49,397 bases of DNA from the IMG/VR virus record IMGVR_UViG_648861009_000005; one strand, 5' to 3'. Positions within the stretch are counted from its first letter, which is position 1; every line of letters begins with the position of its first letter. A model generated the notes under the pieces. The model saw only the letters and a list, made by a program, of their open reading frames with translations. It was not told the DNA's origin and did no database searches. This document shows, in pieces, positions 1,419 through 48,351 of this stretch. The position numbers and the translations under genes are program-made. The DNA comes from a virus. Its lineage: Duplodnaviria; Heunggongvirae; Uroviricota; Caudoviricetes.

Positions 1419-4340
1419 TTAAAAATCAGCCTGACTCGGGATCAGTTTTTGCCAGATAACTGAAACGTATTTTGCCTGGTAACGGGCGTCATCAAGTGCA
1501 TTATGGCGCTCACCTTCGAATGGAATAGCCGTTCTGGCATCGAAGTCTATGGCTTTCCCCAGCTCAACGATTGTGCGTACATCGCGATCGTTGTAGTAAC
1601 GCCACGGGCAGGGGATCCCCTGCCGTTCGTATGAACGGCGCAAAATCGTGTTGTCGAAGTTGGCTCCATTTCCCCAGACCTGAACAAAAATTCGCCGGAG
1701 TTTTCGTCGATAAATTCCCGCAATTGTAACAGTGCATCATCTAACGGGATTTCATCGGTCATAATGGCAGATTGCGCTTCGCGNNNNNNNNNNNNNNNNN
1801 NNNNNNNNNNNNNNNNNNNNNNNNNNNNNNNNNNNNNNNNNNNNNNNNNNNNNNNNNNNNNNNNNNNNNNNNNNNNNNNNNNNNNNNNNNNNNNNNNNNN
1901 NNNNNNNNNNNNNNNNNNNNNNNNNNNNNNNNNNNNNNNNNNNNNNNNNNNNNNNNNNNNNNNNNNNNNNNNNNNNNNNNNNNNNNNNNNNNNNNNNNNN
2001 NNNNNNNNNCTATGGNGTTTCCCCCAGCTCAACGATTGTGCGTACATCGCGATCGTTGTAGTAACGCCACGGGCAGGGGATCCCCTGCCGTTCGTATGAA
2101 CGGCGCAAAATCGTGTTGTCGAAGTTGGCTCCATTTCCCCAGACCTGAACAAAAAATTCGCCGGAGTTTTCGTCGATAAATTCCCGCAATTGTAACAGTG
2201 CATCATCTAACGGGATTTCATCGGTCATAATGGCAGATTGCGCTTCGCGTGATTGCTTAAGCCACCATTTAATGGTGTCCCGATCAATGACTCCGCCAGC
2301 AGTTTCCAGATCGATAGTCTTACTAAATTCCGGTCCCATATCTCCGGTTTGCGGATCGAAAAATATTGCACCTATTGAGATAATCGGGGCATCTGGATTT
2401 TTTCCCATGGTTTCAAGGTCGATCATTAGATGGTCACACGTCCCGCTGGTGGATGTGCCTTTATGATGACCGTTCACCTTAACTGAGTGATCTGTCGCCT
2501 CGCCAGTTTCACTATCGCTATCGTGATGCTGATTGCCGCCAGGGTTCTCCTTGTGTGGATGTTCAGTGCCTTCCATTTCCTCCGGATCATTTTCCTGAAC
2601 TTCAACCTGATTCTCTTCATTGAATGTTTCCTGGTATGTTGCGTCGCCCATCACCGCGCCACAATCAGGGCAGTTGCCGCCGCCGGTCTGACCGCAGGCG
2701 GTGCAGATCTTTTCCGGTTCCTGTTGCACTACTGGTTCAGGTTGTTTCGTTTCTGGCTCGTTTTGTAACGCATTTGGGCTGTTTTGTTCCGCTTTCTGGC
2801 CGTTCTGTTCCGTTTCTTGCTGGTTCTGGTTCACAGAATCGCGGGTTTCCATCCCCTTGACCCATTTCGGATCATTCGGGTCGCTAATCCCTGCAACAAA
2901 TTCTCCGCGAGAGGCCGCAAGCAACTTATCGGCGTCAGGCTGGCTGATATTGGCTGCCTGCATAATTTTGTTTACTTCGTCAGCGGTAACTTTTACCTGA
3001 TTAACCGGATCTATCTGTGCCTGAGTATCCAGCGATTGCGTGTCCTGGCGATGTTCAGTTGTATTCGGCTCCATTGCTTCAGTCGTTGCCTGTTCATCTG
3101 CCATTGCGTCAGACGGTTGTGATTTTTCCTCATTATTTTTTTCTTCTTCTGTTTCGCGTTCAGCAGCCAGTTCGCGGTTAACTTCTTCCAGGATATCTTT
3201 TTCCGGTGTATGTCGTGCAGCAGCGAGAGTTTCCTCGGTAGGGTTCTCGTGATCAGTTTCCGTCAAATAGGCGTTGATATACCCCTGAAGGCGTCCCGGG
3301 TAGTGATAAAATTCAGGGTGTGCGCTTCGGATAAGTGCAAAAATAGCGGCGCGGGAATAATCCAGGATACCCGGGATTGCGCGAAGTGCTGCGGACCATT
3401 CTTTGAACGGACTTTCTTTCTTCCGGACGACTTCTTTTGCGCGACGATAAACGCTGCCCGGAATTTCATAAATATTAAAATCCATCGGAAGTGTGGCCGC
3501 TGCAATCTCCACATCCAGCGTATCGAAGGTGTGTACTAAATTCGGATTGCGATCGGTTTTGTTCCCTCCACCGGCATTAGCACCGGAAGCCGTGCGGGTG
3601 ATGCGTGAAACACGATTTCCTTTCATCCACTCTTTTGTCAGCAGACCGCGATCGGTGTAGTCAGCGCCCAGGTATGCTTCGAAAAAAGCAGTCATCAGTC
3701 CCAGGTCTGAATTACCAGGATTAGGGAAAACTTTGTCCGTGTCACGAACCAGTTTGTGGAGATCGCGAATTTCCAGCGGTTCGAGTTGCGCTGCTTTATT
3801 TGAGATGGCCAGCGCGGTAACGGCGGGAAGTTTTTCATCCTGTGCGTTATGTAATGTGCGCAGTTCGTCCCGCGAAACGTGTGTGATCGGTTTTTCGCTG
3901 CCGTGCTGTGCCAGCCATCGAACAGGCAGAATCTGACCTGAAACCGGCAGGAGCATGTTCTCCTCAATCTCAGCCATGTTTTCGCCGTTGACGTTGGTAT
4001 TGTCAGTGCTGGCTGGTTTATCCTGAACAGAGGGCGAGGGCGCGATAAGTACCATTGTGATACCATCTTCACCGCCCTTTTCGTATCGGTTGCAGAATTC
4101 GGTATCAAACACGCCTTCCGGAGGAAGGTCATTCACAACGGGTAAATGGACGCGAACAGGTTTTTTAAAATCCTCTTTGTCAAATCCGGCATCGTCCATT
4201 GCGACAACACCGCGTGATATTGCAACCGATAATTTTTTTGCTGTGCGCCAGTAAAAACCGCCTTTAATTCCAAGACGTTTTCTGATTTTGTCATTTTTGG
4301 CTTCGTAATATAGTGCAATTTCTTCTTTATCAGTGCTCAT
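1419..4340 (-). CDS. RecE-like exonuclease (exodeoxyribonuclease VIII-type N-terminal region) with C-terminal DEDD-type 3'-5' exonuclease domain; interrupted by a scaffold gap
   Basis: 776-aa ORF plus a duplicated C-terminal piece; N-terminal motifs (PVVNDLP, NVNGENMAEIEENMLLP, LTKEWMKGNRVS, TASGANAGGGN) resemble RecE as recalled; C-terminus HLMIDLETMG..WGNGANFD is a DnaQ-like exonuclease motif; central acidic/Gln-rich linker with a CxxC...CxxC motif. Confidence 0.7.
1784..2009. other. Assembly gap (226 N) with duplicated flanks; also a single N at 2016
   Basis: N-run; 1547-1783 is nearly identical to 2016-2252 (one A-run indel). Confidence 0.9.
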
Positions 4341-4816: not shown

Positions 4817-5374
4817 TCAACAATGAATTTTTAGCAATTGCTCCACAGTCATATTTTTAATTGCGCTCCGGTTTACAAGAGTCCATCCTTGTTTCTCCAG
4901 ATAAAACCGGAAGGTATCCAGGGTGCAGACCATTGCGCCGTCAGGAACGGTTTCAGTGAATTTGATATTGCCGTGTTCGTCGAGACGGATAACCAGGGTG
5001 CGTCCGTCCCCGTGAATCATTTTGTCGGGAGACGGGGCGTTATTCTGGCGCAGTTCTTCCTCCATGCGATCGAACTCAGCGATGTAGGCTTCTTTGAAAG
5101 TTGCGGCTTTTTTACCTGTGAACCCCATCACCAGGAAAACGAAGCCGTTTTTGGTGATTTGGTACATGGGGCGTTTTTCGCCTTTGGCGTCGGTGTAGGT
5201 AACGGGCGTAAAATTGCGCTCGTTAAAATCTTCAGAGCATTCTAGCGTTTCAATTTTGCGCAGAACGTCCTTGTGCATTTTGCGGAAGAACTCTGCAACC
5301 GCAACAGACGTAGTGACAGCGCGACCATTTTCGATGGTTACGTCAGGGTGAGAAAGGGTAGGGATAGTAGCCAT
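4817..5374 (-). CDS. rha: Rha-family phage regulatory protein
   Basis: N-terminus IENGRAVTTSVAVAEFFRKMHKDVLRKIETL is typical of the Phage_pRha domain; AAGAGG RBS before the ATG at 5374; the ORF is open in frame up to 5671 but that extension contains a terminator hairpin. Confidence 0.65.
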   Translation of the reverse strand: MATIPTLSHPDVTIENGRAVTTSVAVAEFFRKMHKDVLRKIETLECSEDFNERNFTPVTYTDAKGEKRPMYQITKNGFVFLVMGFTGKKAATFKEAYIAEFDRMEEELRQNNAPSPDKMIHGDGRTLVIRLDEHGNIKFTETVPDGAMVCTLDTFRFYLEKQGWTLVNRSAIKNMTVEQLLKIHC

Positions 5375-5540
5375 AATGGCAGCCTCTTGGTTGAGTATTA
5401 ATAACTCACCACCAAGGTTTTCCACGACCATAAGGGTGGTGAGGCGTACAGGGGTGGAAATACCGGTCAACCAAGAATCCGGCCAGCCTTGCAGCTGCCC
5501 TGCACGCCCCACCATAATCTGAATGTGGCTGTGCTTGACG

Positions 5541-5563
5541 CATAAAAAAACCGCCTGAGCGCG
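5541..5563 (-). terminator. Putative intrinsic terminator
   Basis: On the minus strand, hairpin accgc-gctcag-gcggt followed by T7. Confidence 0.4.
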
Positions 5564-5850
5564 GTTATGCGCTTGATTGAATTCCGGGTTTCCACGCCCG
5601 GCACCCGTTTTATGAGGTGCAGGTGCACTATAATTCCACCCGTTCTGGTTTTCAATAGCTACATTCAACATTTTCTCTTACCTTTCATCACCGAAGTGAA
5701 CTTTGTTGATGCGGTGCCTGGTGCCTCCAGGTGACGTTAACCAGTTAACAATTAACGCCGGATACAGAGAATCCACCCATAACACTGTTTTTGGTTTTAA
5801 CTGTTCCGCGTGCGCTTAGCCGCATTCACCGCATCACAAAATTCACTTTA

Positions 5851-5903
5851 AAAAGGGTGGCAGAGCAGTCACGGAGTAGAACTGATGCCACCAAAGACTA
5901 CAC
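5851..5903 (-). ncRNA. dicF: DicF-like small RNA
   Basis: Minus-strand sequence UUUGGUGGCAUCAGUUCUACUCCGUGACUGCUCUGCCACCC + U5 matches K-12 DicF as recalled, with paired substitutions that preserve the terminator stem. Confidence 0.65.
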
Positions 5904-6201
5904 ATGGGTATTGTGGCGGGGCTGTCACTTAAGCGTATGGTCAACCTGACAACCCGGTGCATTTTCTGGAGCAATGGAGGAAACCCCAGCCATACTTACC
6001 GCCGCGCCATTTCGCGGATTGCCACAACCGGAAGCGCACGATCGAATTAAATTTAACGACGACCTATACAGAGAGACTAACTTCGCCGGGCGCTTTCGTG
6101 TTATGCCCTGACTTTTCAGGGATATATCCTTTTTAGTAAACTGTCAGTGCCGGATTCTTATCCGTGTCCGGCGCACGCACTCTACCTCACCTGTGAATAA
6201 A

Positions 6202-6588
6202 TTAATGATTAATTGATATTTTGTTGTTTGATTCAACTTTCCCATCGGATGTGTGATGCTTTAAATCACAGGAATTAATACTGCTCGCTGTAAAATGATT
6301 TTCAAGGGGAGCTATTCGAATCCCTTTCTTTTTCATTAACAAGCCAAATCCTTTATTAATGATGTCCATTAATTCCAGGAAGTATTTTTCATGTAAATCC
6401 TGGTTATCAGAGAGCTGCTTCTCTTCGTACAGACCGATAAAGGCACGACGCACGTTACCGGATATAGTATCGATGGTTTCTTTTTCTACGGTACTCAGGT
6501 CAAGAGTCGCCAGTTGAGAGCGAACCACATTCGATGCCATTTCCTGGAATGGTACTGGTAAATCTTTAAATTCCATCGTCAACCTCAT
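6202..6588 (-). CDS. Hypothetical protein (dicB-operon position, YdfB/YdfC region)
   Basis: 128-aa ORF; start overlaps the upstream stop (ATGA), suggesting translational coupling. Confidence 0.4.
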   Translation of the reverse strand: MRLTMEFKDLPVPFQEMASNVVRSQLATLDLSTVEKETIDTISGNVRRAFIGLYEEKQLSDNQDLHEKYFLELMDIINKGFGLLMKKKGIRIAPLENHFTASSINSCDLKHHTSDGKVESNNKISINH

Positions 6589-6740
6589 CAGTCAGTGTTT
6601 CTGGTTAACCAGCGACGCGCGCCAGCTTCAGTTTGAAACGTTTTGCTTCTGGTATACGTCATCGCGGTAAACGTGCCGTCCTGGTTGGGAAACACGCCGC
6701 ATACCAGAGATTCGTTGTTGCCAAGATCGATAGTATCCAT
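6588..6740 (-). CDS. Small protein, YdfA-like
   Basis: 50 aa (MDTIDLGNNESLV...); GAGG RBS; first gene downstream of the dicA-like repressor, as in Qin. Confidence 0.45.
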   Translation of the reverse strand: MDTIDLGNNESLVCGVFPNQDGTFTAMTYTRSKTFQTEAGARRWLTRNTD

Positions 6741-6946
6741 GCTGACCTCATTTCCCCTTAACGCCAGGGTAGCGGAACTGTTTGCTGAGAACACCGTGCG
6801 GTGTCTTGATGAGTAGAATTTAGAATAACCTAAGAATTATGGTCAAGCTTTTTGTGTAGAAAAACCTAAGCTTTTTGATGTAAAAAACACAAGCATTTGA
6901 AAGTTTGTGCTTTTTATTACAGAGAGTGGCGAAAAAAAAGGGAGGG

Positions 6947-7354
6947 TTATTTATTTGCGCTTCTTTTGCGAGCTTTGAGTAGTTCTTCAAAAAGTTTGTT
7001 GAAATTCTCAACTCGAGCACGCATCTCTGACAACAGAGCCTTTTGCTCTGACTCAGGCAGTGCGTCGAACAGTTGAAGCAACTCTTTTTGATCTTCTGTC
7101 AGATTAACTGGCTGATTATCTGGGATCGGTTCGCCTGGTTGCTTATCTTCATCTCCAAAAAGAAGCCAAGTCGGCGAGCACTGAAGCGCCTGGCTCAGTG
7201 CGAATAATCTCTTCCCCGCTGGCTGTGTTTCATCTCTTTCCCATTGAGAAATTGTTACGTGAGCCACTTTGACCAGCTTACCTAATGCGGCCTGAGACAG
7301 TTTTAATTTTTTACGCCTGTATAAGAGGCGAGCACCGAAGGTTTCGTTTTTCAT
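6947..7354 (-). CDS. dicA: DicA-like repressor (XRE-family HTH, cI analogue)
   Basis: 135 aa; strong resemblance to K-12 DicA as recalled (RYRRK.L...Q..L.K.....VSQWER, FALS..LQCSPTW.LFGDEDKQP, NFNKLFEELLKAR). Confidence 0.85.
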   Translation of the reverse strand: MKNETFGARLLYRRKKLKLSQAALGKLVKVAHVTISQWERDETQPAGKRLFALSQALQCSPTWLLFGDEDKQPGEPIPDNQPVNLTEDQKELLQLFDALPESEQKALLSEMRARVENFNKLFEELLKARKRSANK

Positions 7355-14109: not shown

Positions 14110-14367
14110 ATACAGCGAACGCCATTGGTTTAGTTGGATATTTACTGTGCCGGACAAAAACGGTTTGCGGGGAAATCTTAGTTAAGTAGAATAACTGCGG
14201 GTGCTTGAGGCTATCTGTCTCAGGCATGAACACCAAAAGGCAGATAGAGAAAAGCCCCAGTTAACATTACGCGTCCTGCAAGACGCTTAACATTAATCTG
14301 AGGCCATATCTATGCGACACATAGAGATTAGCCTCTTACGGACCGAAAGGTCAAGGAGAAGCAGGCT

Positions 14368-14523
14368 ATGAAGCAGCAAAAGGCGATGTTAATCGCCCTG
14401 ATCGTCATCTGTTTAACCGTCATAGTGACGGCACTGGTAACGAGGAAAGACCTCTGCGAGGTACGAATCCGAACCGGCCAGACGGAGGTCGCTGTCTTCA
14501 CAGCTTACGAACCTGAGGAGTAA
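14368..14523 (+). CDS. hok: Hok/Gef-family type I toxin
   Basis: 51 aa MKQQKAMLIALIVICLTVIVTALVTRKDLCEVRIRTGQTEVAVFTAYEPEE, the canonical Hok/Gef sequence; not in the ORF track because it is below the size cutoff. Confidence 0.85.
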   Translation: MKQQKAMLIALIVICLTVIVTALVTRKDLCEVRIRTGQTEVAVFTAYEPEE

Positions 14524-14639: not shown

Positions 14640-15033
14640 NNNNNNNNNNNNNNNNNNNNNNNNNNNNNNNNNNNNNNNNNNNNNNNNNNNNNNNNNNNNN
14701 NNNNNNNNNNNNNNNNNNNNNNNNNNNNNNNNNNNNNNNNNNNNNNNNNNNNNNNNNNNNNNNNNNNNNNNNNNNNNNNNNNNNNNNNNNNNNNNNNNNN
14801 NNNNNNNNNNNNNNNNNNNNNNNNNNNNNNNNNNNNNNNNNNNNNNNNNNNNNNNNNNNNNNNNNNNNNNNNNNNNNNNNNNNNNNNNNNNNNNNNNNNN
14901 NNNNNNNNNNNNNNNNNNNNNNNNNNNNNNNNNNNNNNNNNNNNNNNNNNNNNNNNNNNNNNNNNNNNNNNNNNNNNNNNNNNNNNNNNNNNNNNNNNNN
15001 NNNNNNNNNNNNNNNNNNNNNNNNNNNNNNNNN
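14640..15033. other. Assembly gap (394 N) with duplicated flanks
   Basis: 14466-14639 repeats at 15034-15207 (one T difference). Confidence 0.9.
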
Positions 15034-18424: not shown

Positions 18425-18738
18425 AGGCTTTTTTATTTGTGGTAAATGGGCGGCTGGTGGGTGTGGTGGTTGTTGCTTTCCCGTTGCTGAAAAAGAAAAC
18501 GCCAGACTGTTAGCCGGGTATCAGTTAGCGGGAGAAATTTTTTAAATACTTCACAATTCAGGCGGTTGACTGTTGTCTGGTTTGCGGGGAGTTTGTTAAA
18601 AGAAACTGGCATGGTGAATCCCCCTGTGCGGAGGGGCAATCAGCGAGTAGGTATATGGGATAATCGCGGATTCAGGTGCTGGTACTGAATTCACCGGGAG
18701 GCACCCGGCACCATGCAATGGCACATAGCGCCACTCTC

Positions 18739-18775
18739 CAGCCCCTCTCCGGAGGGGCTGTTTATATTGATTTTG
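18739..18775 (+). terminator. Intrinsic terminator
   Basis: Perfect 9-bp stem cagcccctc-tccg-gaggggctg followed by a T-rich tract. Confidence 0.5.
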
Positions 18776-34574: not shown

Positions 34575-37530
34575 TCTTGTTATTGACCTGAGTCTGGATG
34601 CGGTCCGTTTCGATGAGCAGATGAGCCGGGTAAGGCGTCATTTTTCAGGTCTGGATACTGACGCCAGAAAAACCGCAACTGTCGTTGAGCAGGGGCTGAG
34701 CCACCAGGCGCTGGCTGCACAAAAAGCAGGGATTTCCGTCGGGCAGTATAAAGCGGCCATGCGAACCCTGCCCGCACAGTTTACGGATATCGCCACGCAG
34801 CTTGCCGGTGGTCAGAATCCCTGGCTGATCCTGCTGCAACAGGGCGGTCAGGTGAAGGACTCCTTCGGCGGGATGATCCCCATGTTCAGGGGGCTTGCCG
34901 GTGCGATCACCCTGCCGATGGTCGGGGTCACCTCGCTGGCGGTGGCGACAGGTGCGCTGGTGTACGCCTGGTACCAGGGAGATTCCACGCTTTCAGCGTT
35001 TAATAAAACCCTGGTTCTTTCCGGTAATCAGTCCGGACTGACTGCCGATCGCATGCTGACGCTCTCCAGAGCCGGACAGGCCGCAGGGCTGACGTTTAAC
35101 CAGGCGAGTGAGTCACTGGCAGCCATGGTGAATGCCGGTGTGCGTGGTGGTGAACAGTTTGATGCCATCAACCAGAGTGTCGCGCGTTTTGCTTCTGCAT
35201 CCGGTGTGGAGGTGGACAAGGTTGCAGAGGCTTTCGGAAAACTGACCACTGACCCGACGTCGGGGCTGATTGCGATGGCGAAGCAGTTCCATAACGTGAC
35301 GGCGGAGCAGATTGCGTATGTTGCTCAGTTGCAGCGTTCCGGCGATGAAACCGGGGCATTGCAGGCGGCGAACGAGGCCGCAACGAAAGGGTTTGATGAC
35401 CAGACCCGCCGCCTGAAAGAGAACATGGGCACGCTGGAGACCTGGGCAGACAGGACAGCGCGGGCATTCAAATCCATGTGGGATGCGGTGCTGGATATTG
35501 GTCGTCCTGATACCGCGCAGGAGATGCTGATTAAGGCAGAGGCTGCGTTTAAGAAAGCAGACGACATCTGGAATCTGCGCAAGGATGATTATTTTGTTAA
35601 CGATGAAGCGCGGGCGCGTTACTGGGATGATCGTGAAAAGGCCCGTCTTGCGCTTGAAGCCGCCCGAAAGAAGGCTGAGCAGCAGACTCAACAGGACAAA
35701 AATGCGCAGCAGCAGAGCGATACCGAAGCGTCACGGCTGAAATATACCGAAGAGGCGCAGAAGGCTTACGAACGGCTGCAGACGCCGCTGGAGAAATATA
35801 CCGCCCGTCAGGAAGAACTGAACAAGGCACTGAAAGACGGGAAAATCCTGCAGGCGGATTACAACACGCTGATGGCGGCGGCGAAAAAGGATTATGAAGC
35901 GACGCTGAAAAAGCCGAAACAGTCCGGCGTGAAGGTGTCTGCGGGCGATCGTCAGGAAGACAGTGCTCATGCTGCCCTGCTGACGCTTCAGGCAGAACTC
36001 CGGACGCTGGAGAAGCATGCCGGAGCGAATGAGAAAATCAGCCAGCAGCGCCGGGATTTGTGGAAGGCGGAGAGTCAGTTCGCGGTACTGGAGGAGGCGG
36101 CGCAACGTCGCCAGCTGTCTGCACAGGAGAAATCCCTGCTGGCGCATAAAGANNNNNNNNNNNNNNNNNNNNNNNNNNNNNNNNNNNNNNNNNNNNNNNN
36201 NNNNNNNNNNNNNNNNNNNNNNNNNNNNNNNNNNNNNNNNNNNNNNNNNNNNNNNNNNNNNNNNNNNNNNNNNNNNNNNNNNNNNNNNNNNNNNNNNNNN
36301 NNNNNNNNNNNNNNNNNNNNNNNNNNNNNNNNNNNNNNNNNNNNNNNNNNNNNNNNNNNNNNNNNNNNNNNNNNNNNNNNNNATGCTGCCCTGCTGACGC
36401 TTCAGGCAGAACTCCGGACGCTGGAGAAGCATGCCGGAGCGAATGAGAAAATCAGCCAGCAGCGCCGGGATTTGTGGAAGGCGGAGAGTCAGTTCGCGGT
36501 ACTGGAGGAGGCGGCGCAACGTCGCCAGCTGTCTGCACAGGAGAAATCCCTGCTGGCGCATAAAGATGAGACGCTGGAGTACAAACGCCAGCTGGCTGCA
36601 CTTGGCGACAAGGTTACGTATCAGGAGCGCCTGAACGCGCTGGCGCAGCAGGCGGATAAATTCGCACAGCAGCAACGGGCAAAACGGGCCGCCATTGATG
36701 CGAAAAGCCGGGGGCTGACTGACCGGCAGGCAGAACGGGAAGCCACGGAACAGCGCCTGAAGGAACAGTATGGCGATAATCCGCTGGCGCTGAATAACGT
36801 CATGTCAGAGCAGAAAAAGACCTGGGCGGCTGAAGACCTGCTTCGCGGGAACTGGATGGCAGGCCTCAGGTCCGGCTGGAGTGAGTGGGAAGAGAGTGCC
36901 ACGGACAGTATGTCGCAGGTAAAAAGTGCTGCCACGCAGACCTTTGATGGTATTGCACAGAATATGGCGGCGATGCTGACCGGCAGTGAGCAGAACTGGC
37001 GCAGCTTCACCCGCTCCGTGCTGTCCATGATGACAGAAATTCTGCTGAAGCAGGCAATGGTGGGGATTGTCGGGAGTATCGGCAGCGCTATTGGCGGGGC
37101 TGTTGGTGGTGGCGCATCCGCGTCAGGCGGTACAGCCATTCAGGCAGCTGCGGCGAAATTCCATTTTGCGACCGGAGGATTTACGGGAACCGGCGGCAAA
37201 TATGAGCCAGCGGGGATTGTCCACCGCGGGGAGTTTGTCTTCACGAAGGAGGCAACCAGCCGGATTGGTGTCGGGAACCTGTACCGCCTGATGCGGGGCT
37301 ATGCGGAAGGGGGGTATGTGGGTGCTGCCGGAAGTCCGGCGCAGATGCGGCGGGCCGAAGGCATTAATTTTAATCAGAACAATCACGTGGTGATTCAGAA
37401 CGACGGTATCAACGGACAGGCCGGGCCGCAGCTGATGAAAGCGGTGTATGAGATGGCCCGTAAAGGTGCGCAGGATGAGCTCCGGCTGCAGTTGCGTGAT
37501 GGCGGTCTGTTATCGGGGAGCGGGCGATGA
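34555..37530 (+). CDS. H: Tape measure protein H (contains a scaffold gap and an artefactual duplication)
   Basis: Similarity to lambda H; the 991-codon ORF minus 230 N and the 184-nt duplication is close to the 853 aa I recall for lambda H. Confidence 0.9.
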   Translation: MSQPVGDLVIDLSLDAVRFDEQMSRVRRHFSGLDTDARKTATVVEQGLSHQALAAQKAGISVGQYKAAMRTLPAQFTDIATQLAGGQNPWLILLQQGGQVKDSFGGMIPMFRGLAGAITLPMVGVTSLAVATGALVYAWYQGDSTLSAFNKTLVLSGNQSGLTADRMLTLSRAGQAAGLTFNQASESLAAMVNAGVRGGEQFDAINQSVARFASASGVEVDKVAEAFGKLTTDPTSGLIAMAKQFHNVTAEQIAYVAQLQRSGDETGALQAANEAATKGFDDQTRRLKENMGTLETWADRTARAFKSMWDAVLDIGRPDTAQEMLIKAEAAFKKADDIWNLRKDDYFVNDEARARYWDDREKARLALEAARKKAEQQTQQDKNAQQQSDTEASRLKYTEEAQKAYERLQTPLEKYTARQEELNKALKDGKILQADYNTLMAAAKKDYEATLKKPKQSGVKVSAGDRQEDSAHAALLTLQAELRTLEKHAGANEKISQQRRDLWKAESQFAVLEEAAQRRQLSAQEKSLLAHKXXXXXXXXXXXXXXXXXXXXXXXXXXXXXXXXXXXXXXXXXXXXXXXXXXXXXXXXXXXXXXXXXXXXXXXXXXXXXXAALLTLQAELRTLEKHAGANEKISQQRRDLWKAESQFAVLEEAAQRRQLSAQEKSLLAHKDETLEYKRQLAALGDKVTYQERLNALAQQADKFAQQQRAKRAAIDAKSRGLTDRQAEREATEQRLKEQYGDNPLALNNVMSEQKKTWAAEDLLRGNWMAGLRSGWSEWEESATDSMSQVKSAATQTFDGIAQNMAAMLTGSEQNWRSFTRSVLSMMTEILLKQAMVGIVGSIGSAIGGAVGGGASASGGTAIQAAAAKFHFATGGFTGTGGKYEPAGIVHRGEFVFTKEATSRIGVGNLYRLMRGYAEGGYVGAAGSPAQMRRAEGINFNQNNHVVIQNDGINGQAGPQLMKAVYEMARKGAQDELRLQLRDGGLLSGSGR
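36153..36382. other. Assembly gap (230 N) with duplicated flanks
   Basis: 35969-36152 is identical to 36383-36566. Confidence 0.9.
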
Positions 37531-47767: not shown

Positions 47768-48351
47768 TGGCATTCAGAATGAGTGAACAAGCACGGACCA
47801 TAAAAATTTATAATCTGCTGGCCGGAACTAATGAATTTATTGGTGAAGGTGACGCATATATTCCGCCTCATACAGGTCTGCCAGCAAACAGTACCGATAT
47901 TGCACCACCAGATATTCCTGCTGGCTTTGTGGCTGTTTTCAACAGTGATGAGGCATCGTGGCATCTCGTTGAAGACCATCGGGGGAAAACGGTTTATGAC
48001 GTAGCGTCAGGGGACGAGTTATTTATTTCTGAACTCGGTCCGTTACCGGAAAATGTTACCTGGTTATCGCCGGAAGGGGAGTTTCAGAAGTGGAACGGCA
48101 CAGCCTGGGTGAAGGATACGGAAGCAGAAAAACTGTTCCGGATCCGGGAGGCGGAAGAAACAAAAAACAACCTGATGCAGGTAGCCAGTGAGCATATTGC
48201 GCCGCTTCAGGATGCTGCAGATCTGGAAATTGCAACGGAGGAAGAAACCTCATTGCTGGAAGCCTGGAAAAAGTATCGGGTGTTGCTGAACCGTGTTGAT
48301 ACATCAACTGCACCTGATATTGAGTGGCCTACGAACCCTGTCAGGGAGTAA
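47767..48351 (+). CDS. tfa: Tail fibre assembly protein Tfa
   Basis: Size and position match lambda Tfa; start overlaps the stf stop. Confidence 0.85.
48190..48351 (+). repeat. Direct repeat, copy 1 (tfa 3' end); copy 2 at 49235-49397
   Basis: About 160 bp with roughly 88% nucleotide identity flanking the methyltransferase gene. Confidence 0.8.

What the first reader, a model, noticed from the sequence alone, without database searches (positions are those of the whole stretch)
5851..5903. DicF-like sRNA with paired substitutions in the terminator stem
The minus strand carries a sequence matching the E. coli K-12 Qin DicF sRNA as I recall it. The 3' two-thirds is conserved, and the differences in the terminator stem (GGCGG/CCGCC to GGUGG/CCACC) are paired, which preserves the hairpin and argues for a functional RNA. 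The 5' dozen nucleotides differ, which could change target range. DicF is known to repress ftsZ among other targets.
Basis: partly seen in the sequence, partly recalled or inferred. Interest (0 to 1): 0.5.

Follow-up and report, generated by a model that had tools for sequence, protein, structure and literature searches.

The report
Shortened DicF small-RNA allele in prophage
This is a genuine copy of the well-known prophage small RNA DicF, which blocks cell division by silencing ftsZ. It is a minority allele that keeps the hairpin and the ftsZ-pairing loop but lacks the 5' stretch the K-12 version uses to silence xylR, so it is an ordinary find with one modest twist.

Summary
Rfam's DicF model (RF00039) matches window 5855-5906 (-) over its full length at 61.1 bits (gathering score 48; K-12 dicF scores 76.7).

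Against K-12 Qin dicF, the terminator stem carries one true compensatory change (C-G to U-A) and one U·G to C-G change. Predicted stability is unchanged (-15.8 vs -15.9 kcal/mol). A U·G intermediate allele exists in other phage contigs.

The "different 5' dozen nucleotides" are best explained as a 15-nt indel. It removes K-12 DicF nt 1-13 and the reported RNase E processing site, and places precursor sequence next to the hairpin.

Predicted pairing through the central and 3' region is kept:
- ftsZ: -15.6 vs -16.9 kcal/mol
- pykA: -21.4 vs -22.3
- manX: -28.1 vs -32.2

The experimentally defined 5'-end pairing with xylR is lost (-6.1 vs -15.8).

The locus sits in the canonical place: DicA-like repressor, ydfA-like gene, dicF, dicB, in an E. 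coli lambdoid prophage. An isrK/C4/Rha cassette is inserted before dicB.

The allele occurs in 208 of 5426 complete E. coli genomes, against 3971 for the K-12 type.

Verdict: a known family, a real member and an uncharacterised allele. Expression, the mature 5' end and the targets are untested. Interest is low to moderate.

The parts
5855..5906 (-). DicF-family small RNA gene (Rfam RF00039 match, model positions 1-52)
   Evidence: 61.1 bits against a gathering score of 48, E 4.6e-11, full-length match. K-12 dicF scores 76.7 bits with the same model.
5886..5892 (-). 5' arm of the outer terminator stem, GGUGGCA. U5890 and C5887 differ from K-12 (C and U).
   Evidence: Alignment to K-12, Rfam structure line, MFE fold, pair counts.
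5856..5862 (-). 3' arm of the outer terminator stem, UGCCACC. A5858 differs from K-12 (G) and pairs with U5890.
   Evidence: Column pair 18/50 shows CG 14, UA 4, UG 1 and C·A 1 among 20 distinct alleles.
5866..5884 (-). Inner 4-bp helix (CAGU/ACUG) and 11-nt loop UCUACUCCGUG. The loop carries the CUCC anti-Shine-Dalgarno core that pairs with the ftsZ and pykA ribosome binding sites. C5879 is U in K-12.
   Evidence: Rfam structure. The core UACUCCGU and both arms of the inner helix are invariant in all 20 alleles. Duplex energies: ftsZ -15.6 vs -16.9, pykA -21.4 vs -22.3 kcal/mol. Target regions are from PMC5069750, sections 8 and 10.
5850..5854 (-). U5 tail of the intrinsic terminator, the expected Hfq-binding 3' end
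   Evidence: Read directly from the sequence. Identical to K-12. The role is inferred from published DicF biogenesis (PMC9438474).
5893..5906 (-). Single-stranded 5' segment CAUGUGUAGUCUUU. The first 11 nt are homologous to K-12 precursor sequence upstream of mature DicF. The 15-nt indel junction lies between 5896 and 5895. The UUU next to the hairpin is invariant.
   Evidence: Global alignment. Allele table. xylR duplex -6.1 vs -15.8 kcal/mol.
5907..6201 (-). Untranslated leader between the upstream ORF and dicF. It is largely conserved with the K-12 ydfC-dicF spacer and is predicted to be structured. It is the presumed precursor from which DicF is cut.
   Evidence: Alignment A1. Fold with z -2.25. 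No promoter-like site on this strand in the interval.
6947..7354 (-). DicA/CI-like helix-turn-helix repressor gene at the head of the operon side
   Evidence: ORF list. PGAP annotation of a 100% identical E. coli locus. Colinear with K-12 dicA.
6817..6846 (-). Promoter-like site (TTGACC-18-TAAATT) between the repressor gene and the ydfA-like gene. Candidate operon promoter.
   Evidence: Consensus scan only. Function is inferred.
6588..6740 (-). ydfA-like DUF1391 gene
   Evidence: PGAP annotation of the identical locus L001, 6661-6813, mapped onto the window.
6202..6576 (-). Hypothetical gene in the position of K-12 ydfB/ydfC
   Evidence: PGAP annotation of L001, 6825-7199. ORF list.
5702..5849 (-). 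dicF-dicB spacer, about 98% identical to K-12. It gives a sub-threshold STnc100-like structured match. The outer helix begins about 19 nt after DicF, where the RNase III-generated 72-nt end is reported.
   Evidence: (38 and 34.4 bits against a gathering score of 47). The 72-nt species is described in PMC9438474.
4618..4806 (-). dicB (cell division inhibitor), downstream gene of the same operon
   Evidence: ORF translation. PGAP annotation. The K-12 sequence upstream of dicB resumes at about 4835.

Best explanation
This is a DicF-family, Hfq-type small RNA carried in the early-left (dicBF) operon of an E. coli lambdoid prophage.

By homology with K-12 DicF, the operon is transcribed when the DicA-like repressor is relieved. 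Part of the transcripts end at the GGUGGCA...UGCCACC-U5 hairpin, and an endonuclease trims the 5' side.

The exposed loop and 3' half (UACUCCGUGACUGCUCUGCC) pair with the ribosome binding sites of ftsZ and pykA and with the manX coding region. That blocks translation and, for ftsZ, cell division.

This allele differs from the K-12 prototype by a 15-nt indel. The indel removes the 5' single-stranded seed (nt 1-13) and the reported RNase E cleavage site. I therefore predict that it has lost xylR regulation and has a different, unknown mature 5' end.

Shown here: family membership, structure, context, complementarity, allele frequency. Inferred: transcription, processing, Hfq binding and actual regulation.
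For: - Covariance-model match above Rfam's curated threshold over the full model.
- Hairpin retained with equal stability. All stem changes keep pairing: one pair changed on both sides, one wobble-to-Watson-Crick change, and a natural U·G intermediate in L181, L185 and L205.
- Colinear with K-12 dicA-ydfA-...-dicF-spacer-dicB.
- The loop core UACUCCGU and the UUU before the hairpin are invariant in all 20 distinct alleles.
- Predicted duplexes with ftsZ, pykA and manX are retained: -15.6 vs -16.9, -21.4 vs -22.3 and -28.1 vs -32.2 kcal/mol. The xylR duplex collapses, -6.1 vs -15.8.
- Published mutational mapping places ftsZ, pykA and manX pairing in the central and 3' part and xylR pairing at the 5' end (PMC5069750, sections 8-10; PMC5861419).
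- The allele is maintained in 208 complete E. coli genomes and in mosaic prophage contexts.
Against: - There are no expression data for this allele.
- The whole region is very similar to K-12 (the spacer is about 98% identical), so conservation of the loop does not by itself show selection on the RNA.
- The compensatory pair is one event.
- The K-12 RNase E site is absent and no canonical replacement is evident, so a stable processed RNA may not form, or may have almost no 5' tail.
- The energies come from simple duplex and cofold calculations without Hfq or full accessibility modelling.
- The Rfam score is 15.6 bits below K-12.
Confidence: 0.72

Rival explanations
1. The element works here only as an intra-operon intrinsic terminator or attenuator in front of dicB. 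With the 5' processing site deleted, no stable trans-acting RNA accumulates, and the allele is a decayed DicF.
For: The hairpin plus U-tail is all that selection demonstrably keeps. The 15-nt indel removes the K-12 5' end and the cleavage site. The allele is about 20-fold rarer than the K-12 type. Flanking sequence is just as conserved as the loop.
Against: The loop and 3' seed are unchanged apart from one U-to-C change that also occurs in K-12-type alleles. The allele persists at 99% identity or more in 153 genomes and in several different prophage backgrounds. The terminated 3' end and U-tail needed for Hfq binding are intact. RNase E needs only an accessible single-stranded AU-rich segment, and the precursor fold leaves GUAGUCUUU unpaired.
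Confidence: 0.18
2. The allele is a neofunctionalised DicF whose new 5' tail (CAUGUGUAGUC) is a seed for new targets. It would then be a paralogue with a distinct regulon, not a truncated DicF.
For: The 5' tail is single-stranded in the predicted fold. Its sequence is nearly constant within the allele class, with three point variants among about 45 contigs. It has an 11-pair match (-13.4 kcal/mol) to manX codons 9-12.
Against: The tail aligns with K-12 precursor sequence, so it was juxtaposed by an indel and did not evolve as a seed. The manX match is of a size expected by chance when several targets are tried (my rough estimate). No complementary site above chance occurs in the 49-kb window. 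A genome-wide target search could not be run. The mature 5' end may lie downstream of this tail.
Confidence: 0.1

Closest known systems
DicF of the E. coli K-12 Qin cryptic prophage (b1574, 53 nt; Rfam RF00039)
   Same: Same Rfam family, hairpin architecture, U-tail and UUU before the hairpin. The loop and 3' seed are identical except for one nucleotide. Same operon position between the ydfABC-type genes and dicB, downstream of a DicA-like repressor. The leader and the dicF-dicB spacer are near-identical.
   Different: A 15-nt indel removes nt 1-13 (the xylR-pairing 5' seed) and the reported RNase E site. Stem pair C-G becomes U-A and U·G becomes C-G. Loop U becomes C. An isrK/C4/Rha cassette lies between the spacer and dicB. 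ydfB and ydfC are replaced by one unrelated ORF.
The multiple DicF copies of EHEC O157:H7 prophages (four copies; activate pchA, repress stx2A; Melson and Kendall 2019, as summarised in PMC7873438 and PMC9438474)
   Same: Prophage-borne DicF copies in varied lambdoid backgrounds of one species, in parts of the dicBF locus.
   Different: In an O157:H7 genome, all four places match the K-12-type 93-nt probe. The allele studied here is a different sequence class. Its probe found no full-length match in the O157:H7 rows listed. Pairing to pchA could not be checked, because the primary paper is not held.
Intra-operonic and 3'UTR-derived Hfq small RNAs made by termination plus RNase E trimming (SroC, CpxQ, SdhX; review PMC9438474)
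   Same: Biogenesis logic: a terminator hairpin supplies the 3' end and Hfq site, a nuclease sets the 5' end, and seed variability lies outside a short conserved core.
   Different: Those RNAs are core-genome encoded and unrelated in sequence. Here the processing site itself is polymorphic between alleles.

Membership tests
Rfam RF00039 DicF RNA | Covariance-model score at or above the curated gathering score (48 bits), over the whole model | tested here: met
   61.1 bits, model 1-52 of 52, E 4.6e-11. K-12 reference 76.7 bits.
Rfam RF00039 DicF RNA | Terminator-like hairpin: 7-bp outer helix, 1-nt bulge, 4-bp inner helix, 11-nt loop, 3-nt bulge, followed by a U run | tested here: met
   No non-canonical pairs are flagged in the cmscan alignment. 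MFE -15.8 kcal/mol, z -3.0. 99.1% of cells are paired across 20 alleles. The U5 tail is at 5850-5854.
Rfam RF00039 DicF RNA | Central and 3' sequence complementary to the ftsZ ribosome binding site | tested here: met
   Duplex -15.6 kcal/mol against -16.9 for K-12. CUCCG pairs with the CGGAG Shine-Dalgarno region. This is computational only.
Rfam RF00039 DicF RNA | Location in the immunity-region (dicBF) operon of a lambdoid prophage, upstream of dicB and downstream of a DicA-like repressor | tested here: met
   PGAP annotation of an identical E. coli locus and colinearity with K-12 Qin.
Rfam RF00039 DicF RNA | Accumulates as a small, Hfq-dependent RNA that represses FtsZ synthesis and causes filamentation | not testable with these tools
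   Needs Northern blot or RNA-seq, Hfq co-immunoprecipitation and reporter assays.
K-12 prototype DicF allele (the 53-nt species with two seeds) | 5' single-stranded seed UUUCUGGUGACGU that pairs with xylR | tested here: not met
   The seed is absent because of the 15-nt indel. The xylR duplex is -6.1 against -15.8 kcal/mol. Seed mapping is from PMC5069750, section 9. This is a feature of the prototype allele, not of the Rfam family.
K-12 prototype DicF allele (the 53-nt species with two seeds) | RNase E processing site (…AUCAAU|UUUCUGG…) that sets the 5' end | tested here: not met
   The AU-rich site lies inside the deleted 15 nt. Whether another site is used cannot be read from the sequence.

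The most novel reading that the evidence does not exclude
This allele class is a natural separation-of-function DicF. It would keep regulation of cell division, pykA and manX but lose xylR control. Because the RNase E site is deleted, it would be made by a different processing route, possibly with a new 5' seed and new targets. E. coli strains would then differ in the DicF regulon according to which prophage allele they carry.
Probability: 0.3. Interest if true: 0.4.

Novelty: new member of a known kind. Interest (0 to 1): 0.25.

Why it matters
DicF is a textbook prophage small RNA, and most work uses the K-12 allele. A naturally occurring allele is carried by about 4% of complete E. coli genomes. 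It lacks the 5' seed and the processing site but keeps the ftsZ seed.

That makes it a ready-made natural test of two ideas. One is the two-seed model of DicF. The other is how the 5' ends of operon-derived small RNAs are set.

It also shows that "DicF present" in a genome does not imply the same regulon. Beyond that, the find is ordinary: the family, mechanism and context are all known.

Tried and rejected
- **Outgroup search.** I scanned one genome per bacterial species for the DicF core to find an outgroup and decide whether the 15 nt were inserted or deleted. Only Escherichia and Shigella hits were real, and the other 21 were chance matches. The direction of the indel stays open.
- **Covariation statistics.** On 20 distinct alleles only one pair changes on both sides. 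It comes from one lineage, so the shuffle counts (2 of 500) should not be read as a probability.
- **Whole-length duplex folding.** Folding DicF against the targets gave inflated, uninformative duplexes. I replaced it with cofold and seed-restricted duplexes.
- **Targets inside the window.** I looked for sites complementary to the new 5' tail. Nothing exceeded chance.
- **Terminator scan.** This is not evidence against it.
- **Literature search for the allele.** A full-text search for the allele's sequence found nothing. That covers only the open-access library.
- **Link to flanking modules.** I considered that the allele might be tied to the isrK/C4/Rha cassette or to the upstream 128-aa ORF. 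It is not: both alleles occur with and without each.

Full report
**What is there**

The minus strand of the window at 5855-5906 reads CAUGUGUAGUCUUUGGUGGCAUCAGUUCUACUCCGUGACUGCUCUGCCACCC, followed by UUUUU. A scan of the whole window against all Rfam families gives a full-length match to DicF (RF00039, model 1-52 of 52). The score is 61.1 bits against a gathering score of 48, with E 4.6e-11. The alignment shows no non-canonical pair in the model's two helices. The K-12 reference gene scores 76.7 bits with the same model.

**Comparison with K-12**

I fetched the Qin region of MG1655, where dicF is annotated at 1649382-1649434, and aligned it.

From the UUUGG before the hairpin to the last C, there are four differences:
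- C to U at the third stem position (window 5890).
- G to A at its pairing partner (5858). Together these turn C-G into U-A.
- U to C at 5887, which turns a U·G pair into C-G.
- U to C in the loop (5879).

Predicted stability is unchanged: -15.8 vs -15.9 kcal/mol. The window sequence folds better than all 200 shuffles.

**How much the paired substitution proves**

I collected DicF copies from IMG/VR phage contigs with two pattern scans and from one genome per species. These reduced to 20 distinct alleles. On the Rfam structure, 99.1% of cells are paired.

Only one pair changes on both sides: CG 14, UA 4, UG 1 and one C·A mismatch. All the U-A alleles belong to one sequence class, so this is one evolutionary event.

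Three contigs (L181, L185, L205) carry the U·G intermediate, GGUGG with GCCGCC. The path C-G to U·G to U-A therefore never needed an unpaired state.

My own rough estimate is that a second of four point changes lands on the partner of the first about one time in twenty. That is suggestive but not strong. A preserved hairpin is also what a mere terminator would show.

**The 5' end**

MAFFT placed a 14-nt gap upstream and left the 5' 12 nt as mismatches. An affine-gap global alignment prefers a different reading:
- K-12: CCC-TCTGTTATC[AATTTTCTGGTGACG]TTTGG
- window: CCCATGTGTAGTC[---------------]TTTGG

This scores -7 with 18 identities. The substitution reading scores -22 with 13 identities.

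On this reading, the window's 5' dozen nucleotides are homologous to K-12 precursor sequence just upstream of mature DicF. The 15 nt that are missing are DicF nt 1-13 plus the two preceding bases. That stretch includes the AU-rich site where RNase E is reported to set the 5' end (biogenesis as summarised in PMC9438474).

No outgroup exists to tell deletion from insertion. The DicF core occurs only in Escherichia and Shigella among 185,579 species representatives. The mature 5' end of this allele cannot be read from the sequence. In a fold of the leader plus DicF, only GUAGUCUUU is left unpaired between a structured leader and the hairpin.

**Context**

The 2-kb stretch around the element is 100% identical to many E. 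coli chromosomes. In one of them PGAP annotates, in order:
- a Cro-like gene on the other strand;
- a helix-turn-helix (DicA/CI-like) repressor;
- a DUF1391 (ydfA-like) gene;
- a hypothetical gene;
- then, downstream of the dicF position, a Rha-family regulator, dicB, a DUF1482 gene, exonuclease, excisionase and integrase.

K-12 is colinear through the leader, dicF and the dicF-dicB spacer, which is about 98% identical. Colinearity resumes about 30 nt before dicB. No promoter-like site lies between the upstream ORF and dicF. One lies between the repressor gene and the ydfA-like gene. This fits DicF being cut from the operon transcript, as in K-12.

PGAP annotates nothing over dicF for either allele. 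The lack of annotation is pipeline policy and does not indicate novelty.

**Targets**

Published mutational analysis shows:
- ftsZ pairs with the 3' region of DicF.
- pykA pairs with residues that a mutation also affecting ftsZ disrupts.
- xylR pairs with the 5' end (PMC5069750, sections 8-10).
- manX pairs with the 3' end, inside the manX coding region (PMC5861419).

Seed-restricted duplex energies against the MG1655 target sequences are given below.

| Target | DicF region | K-12 (kcal/mol) | Window allele (kcal/mol) |
|---|---|---|---|
| ftsZ | loop / 3' | -16.9 | -15.6 |
| pykA | loop / 3' | -22.3 | -21.4 |
| manX | 3' end | -32.2 | -28.1 |
| xylR | 5' end | -15.8 (11 contiguous pairs) | -6.1 |

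With intramolecular structure allowed, the xylR interaction gain falls from -15.0 to -4.6 kcal/mol.

The prediction is that ftsZ, pykA and manX control is kept and xylR control is lost. These are calculations, not measurements.

**Frequency and distribution**

A 90-nt probe spanning the allele finds it at 80% coverage or more in 208 of 5426 complete E. coli genomes. In 153 of them identity is 99% or more. All places are on chromosomes. The equivalent K-12 probe finds 3971 genomes and 7042 places.

In phage contigs, the allele occurs with and without the isrK/C4/Rha cassette and with and without the upstream 128-aa ORF. The K-12 type does the same. dicF alleles are therefore shuffled independently of their neighbours. 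A full-text search for the allele's sequence found no paper, within the limits of the open-access library.

**Mechanism, with its status**

Shown: family membership, hairpin, context, complementarity.

Inferred from the K-12 and EHEC literature: transcription from the repressor-controlled operon, termination at the hairpin, 5' trimming, Hfq binding to the U-tail, and occlusion of the ftsZ and pykA ribosome binding sites by the CUCC-containing loop. The expected result is filamentation when the RNA accumulates.

The main rival is that, without its processing site, this allele is only an attenuator in front of dicB. A less likely rival is that the juxtaposed 5' tail is a new seed. The only support is an 11-pair match to manX codons 9-12 (-13.4 kcal/mol). 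A match of that size is expected by chance when several targets are tried, and nothing complementary above chance occurs in the window.

**Verdict**

It belongs to a known family and has a known mechanism and context. It represents an uncharacterised minority allele that lacks the prototype's 5' seed and processing site. That makes it a useful natural variant for testing the two-seed model, but it would not surprise a specialist. Interest 0.25.

Noticed in passing
window 4826-5701 (-): isrK 5544-5620, C4 antisense RNA 5432-5519, Rha ORF 4817 to about 5373: An approximately 875-bp cassette sits exactly between the dicF-dicB spacer and dicB. It carries isrK (69.2 bits), a P1-type C4 antisense RNA (78 bits), a weak a1/b1 target-site match and a Rha-family antirepressor gene. 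K-12 Qin is colinear on both sides, and AAA(A/G)TTCA occurs at both junctions. The cassette has its own promoter-like site (TTGAAA-17-TATAGT, 5655-5627). PGAP's 284-aa Rha call (4817-5671) runs through both RNAs. The gene probably starts at the ATG at 5373, which follows AAGAGG. Both DicF alleles occur with and without the cassette.
   Followed up: partly
window 5702-5843 (-); also K-12 L002:2933-3142; full copy at window 18580-18769 (+): The dicF-dicB spacer gives a sub-threshold match to the STnc100 RNA family: 38 bits here and 34.4 bits in K-12, against a gathering score of 47. A full STnc100 (132.4 bits) lies elsewhere in the same prophage. The spacer's outer helix GAUGCGGUG/CACCGCAUC begins about 19 nt after DicF, where the RNase III-made 72-nt DicF end is reported. 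Across phage contigs the two arms vary almost entirely by C/U wobble switches, so there is no clear covariation.
   Followed up: partly
window 5702-5785 (-): RefSeq annotates a 28-codon 'DicB, missing C-terminus' pseudogene inside the non-coding dicF-dicB spacer of identical genomes. The sequence is the K-12 spacer, not dicB coding sequence. The call looks like an artefact of DicB homologues annotated with over-long N-termini.
   Followed up: no
window 5907-6060 (-): The leader upstream of dicF is strongly conserved with K-12, apart from one hairpin whose sequence is replaced but which still folds (GGCGGGG...CCCCGUU in K-12, CUGGGGU...GCUCCAG here). This hints at a structured precursor element.
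   Followed up: no
L181, L185, L205 and L089 (IMG/VR contigs): Natural intermediates of the stem change exist. Three contigs have GGUGG with GCCGCC (a U·G pair) on the window-type background. One K-12-type contig has GGCGG with GCCACC (a C·A mismatch).
   Followed up: yes
window 14199-14370 (+) and 48110-48308 (+): There is a sok antitoxin RNA (106.7 bits; a hok/sok module) and an IS009 RNA (225.2 bits) elsewhere in the window.
   Followed up: no
window 1784-2009, 2016, 14640-15033, 36153-36382: These are runs of N (masked sequence). The first interrupts the 3' end of the exonuclease ORF, whose translation contains an X.
   Followed up: no
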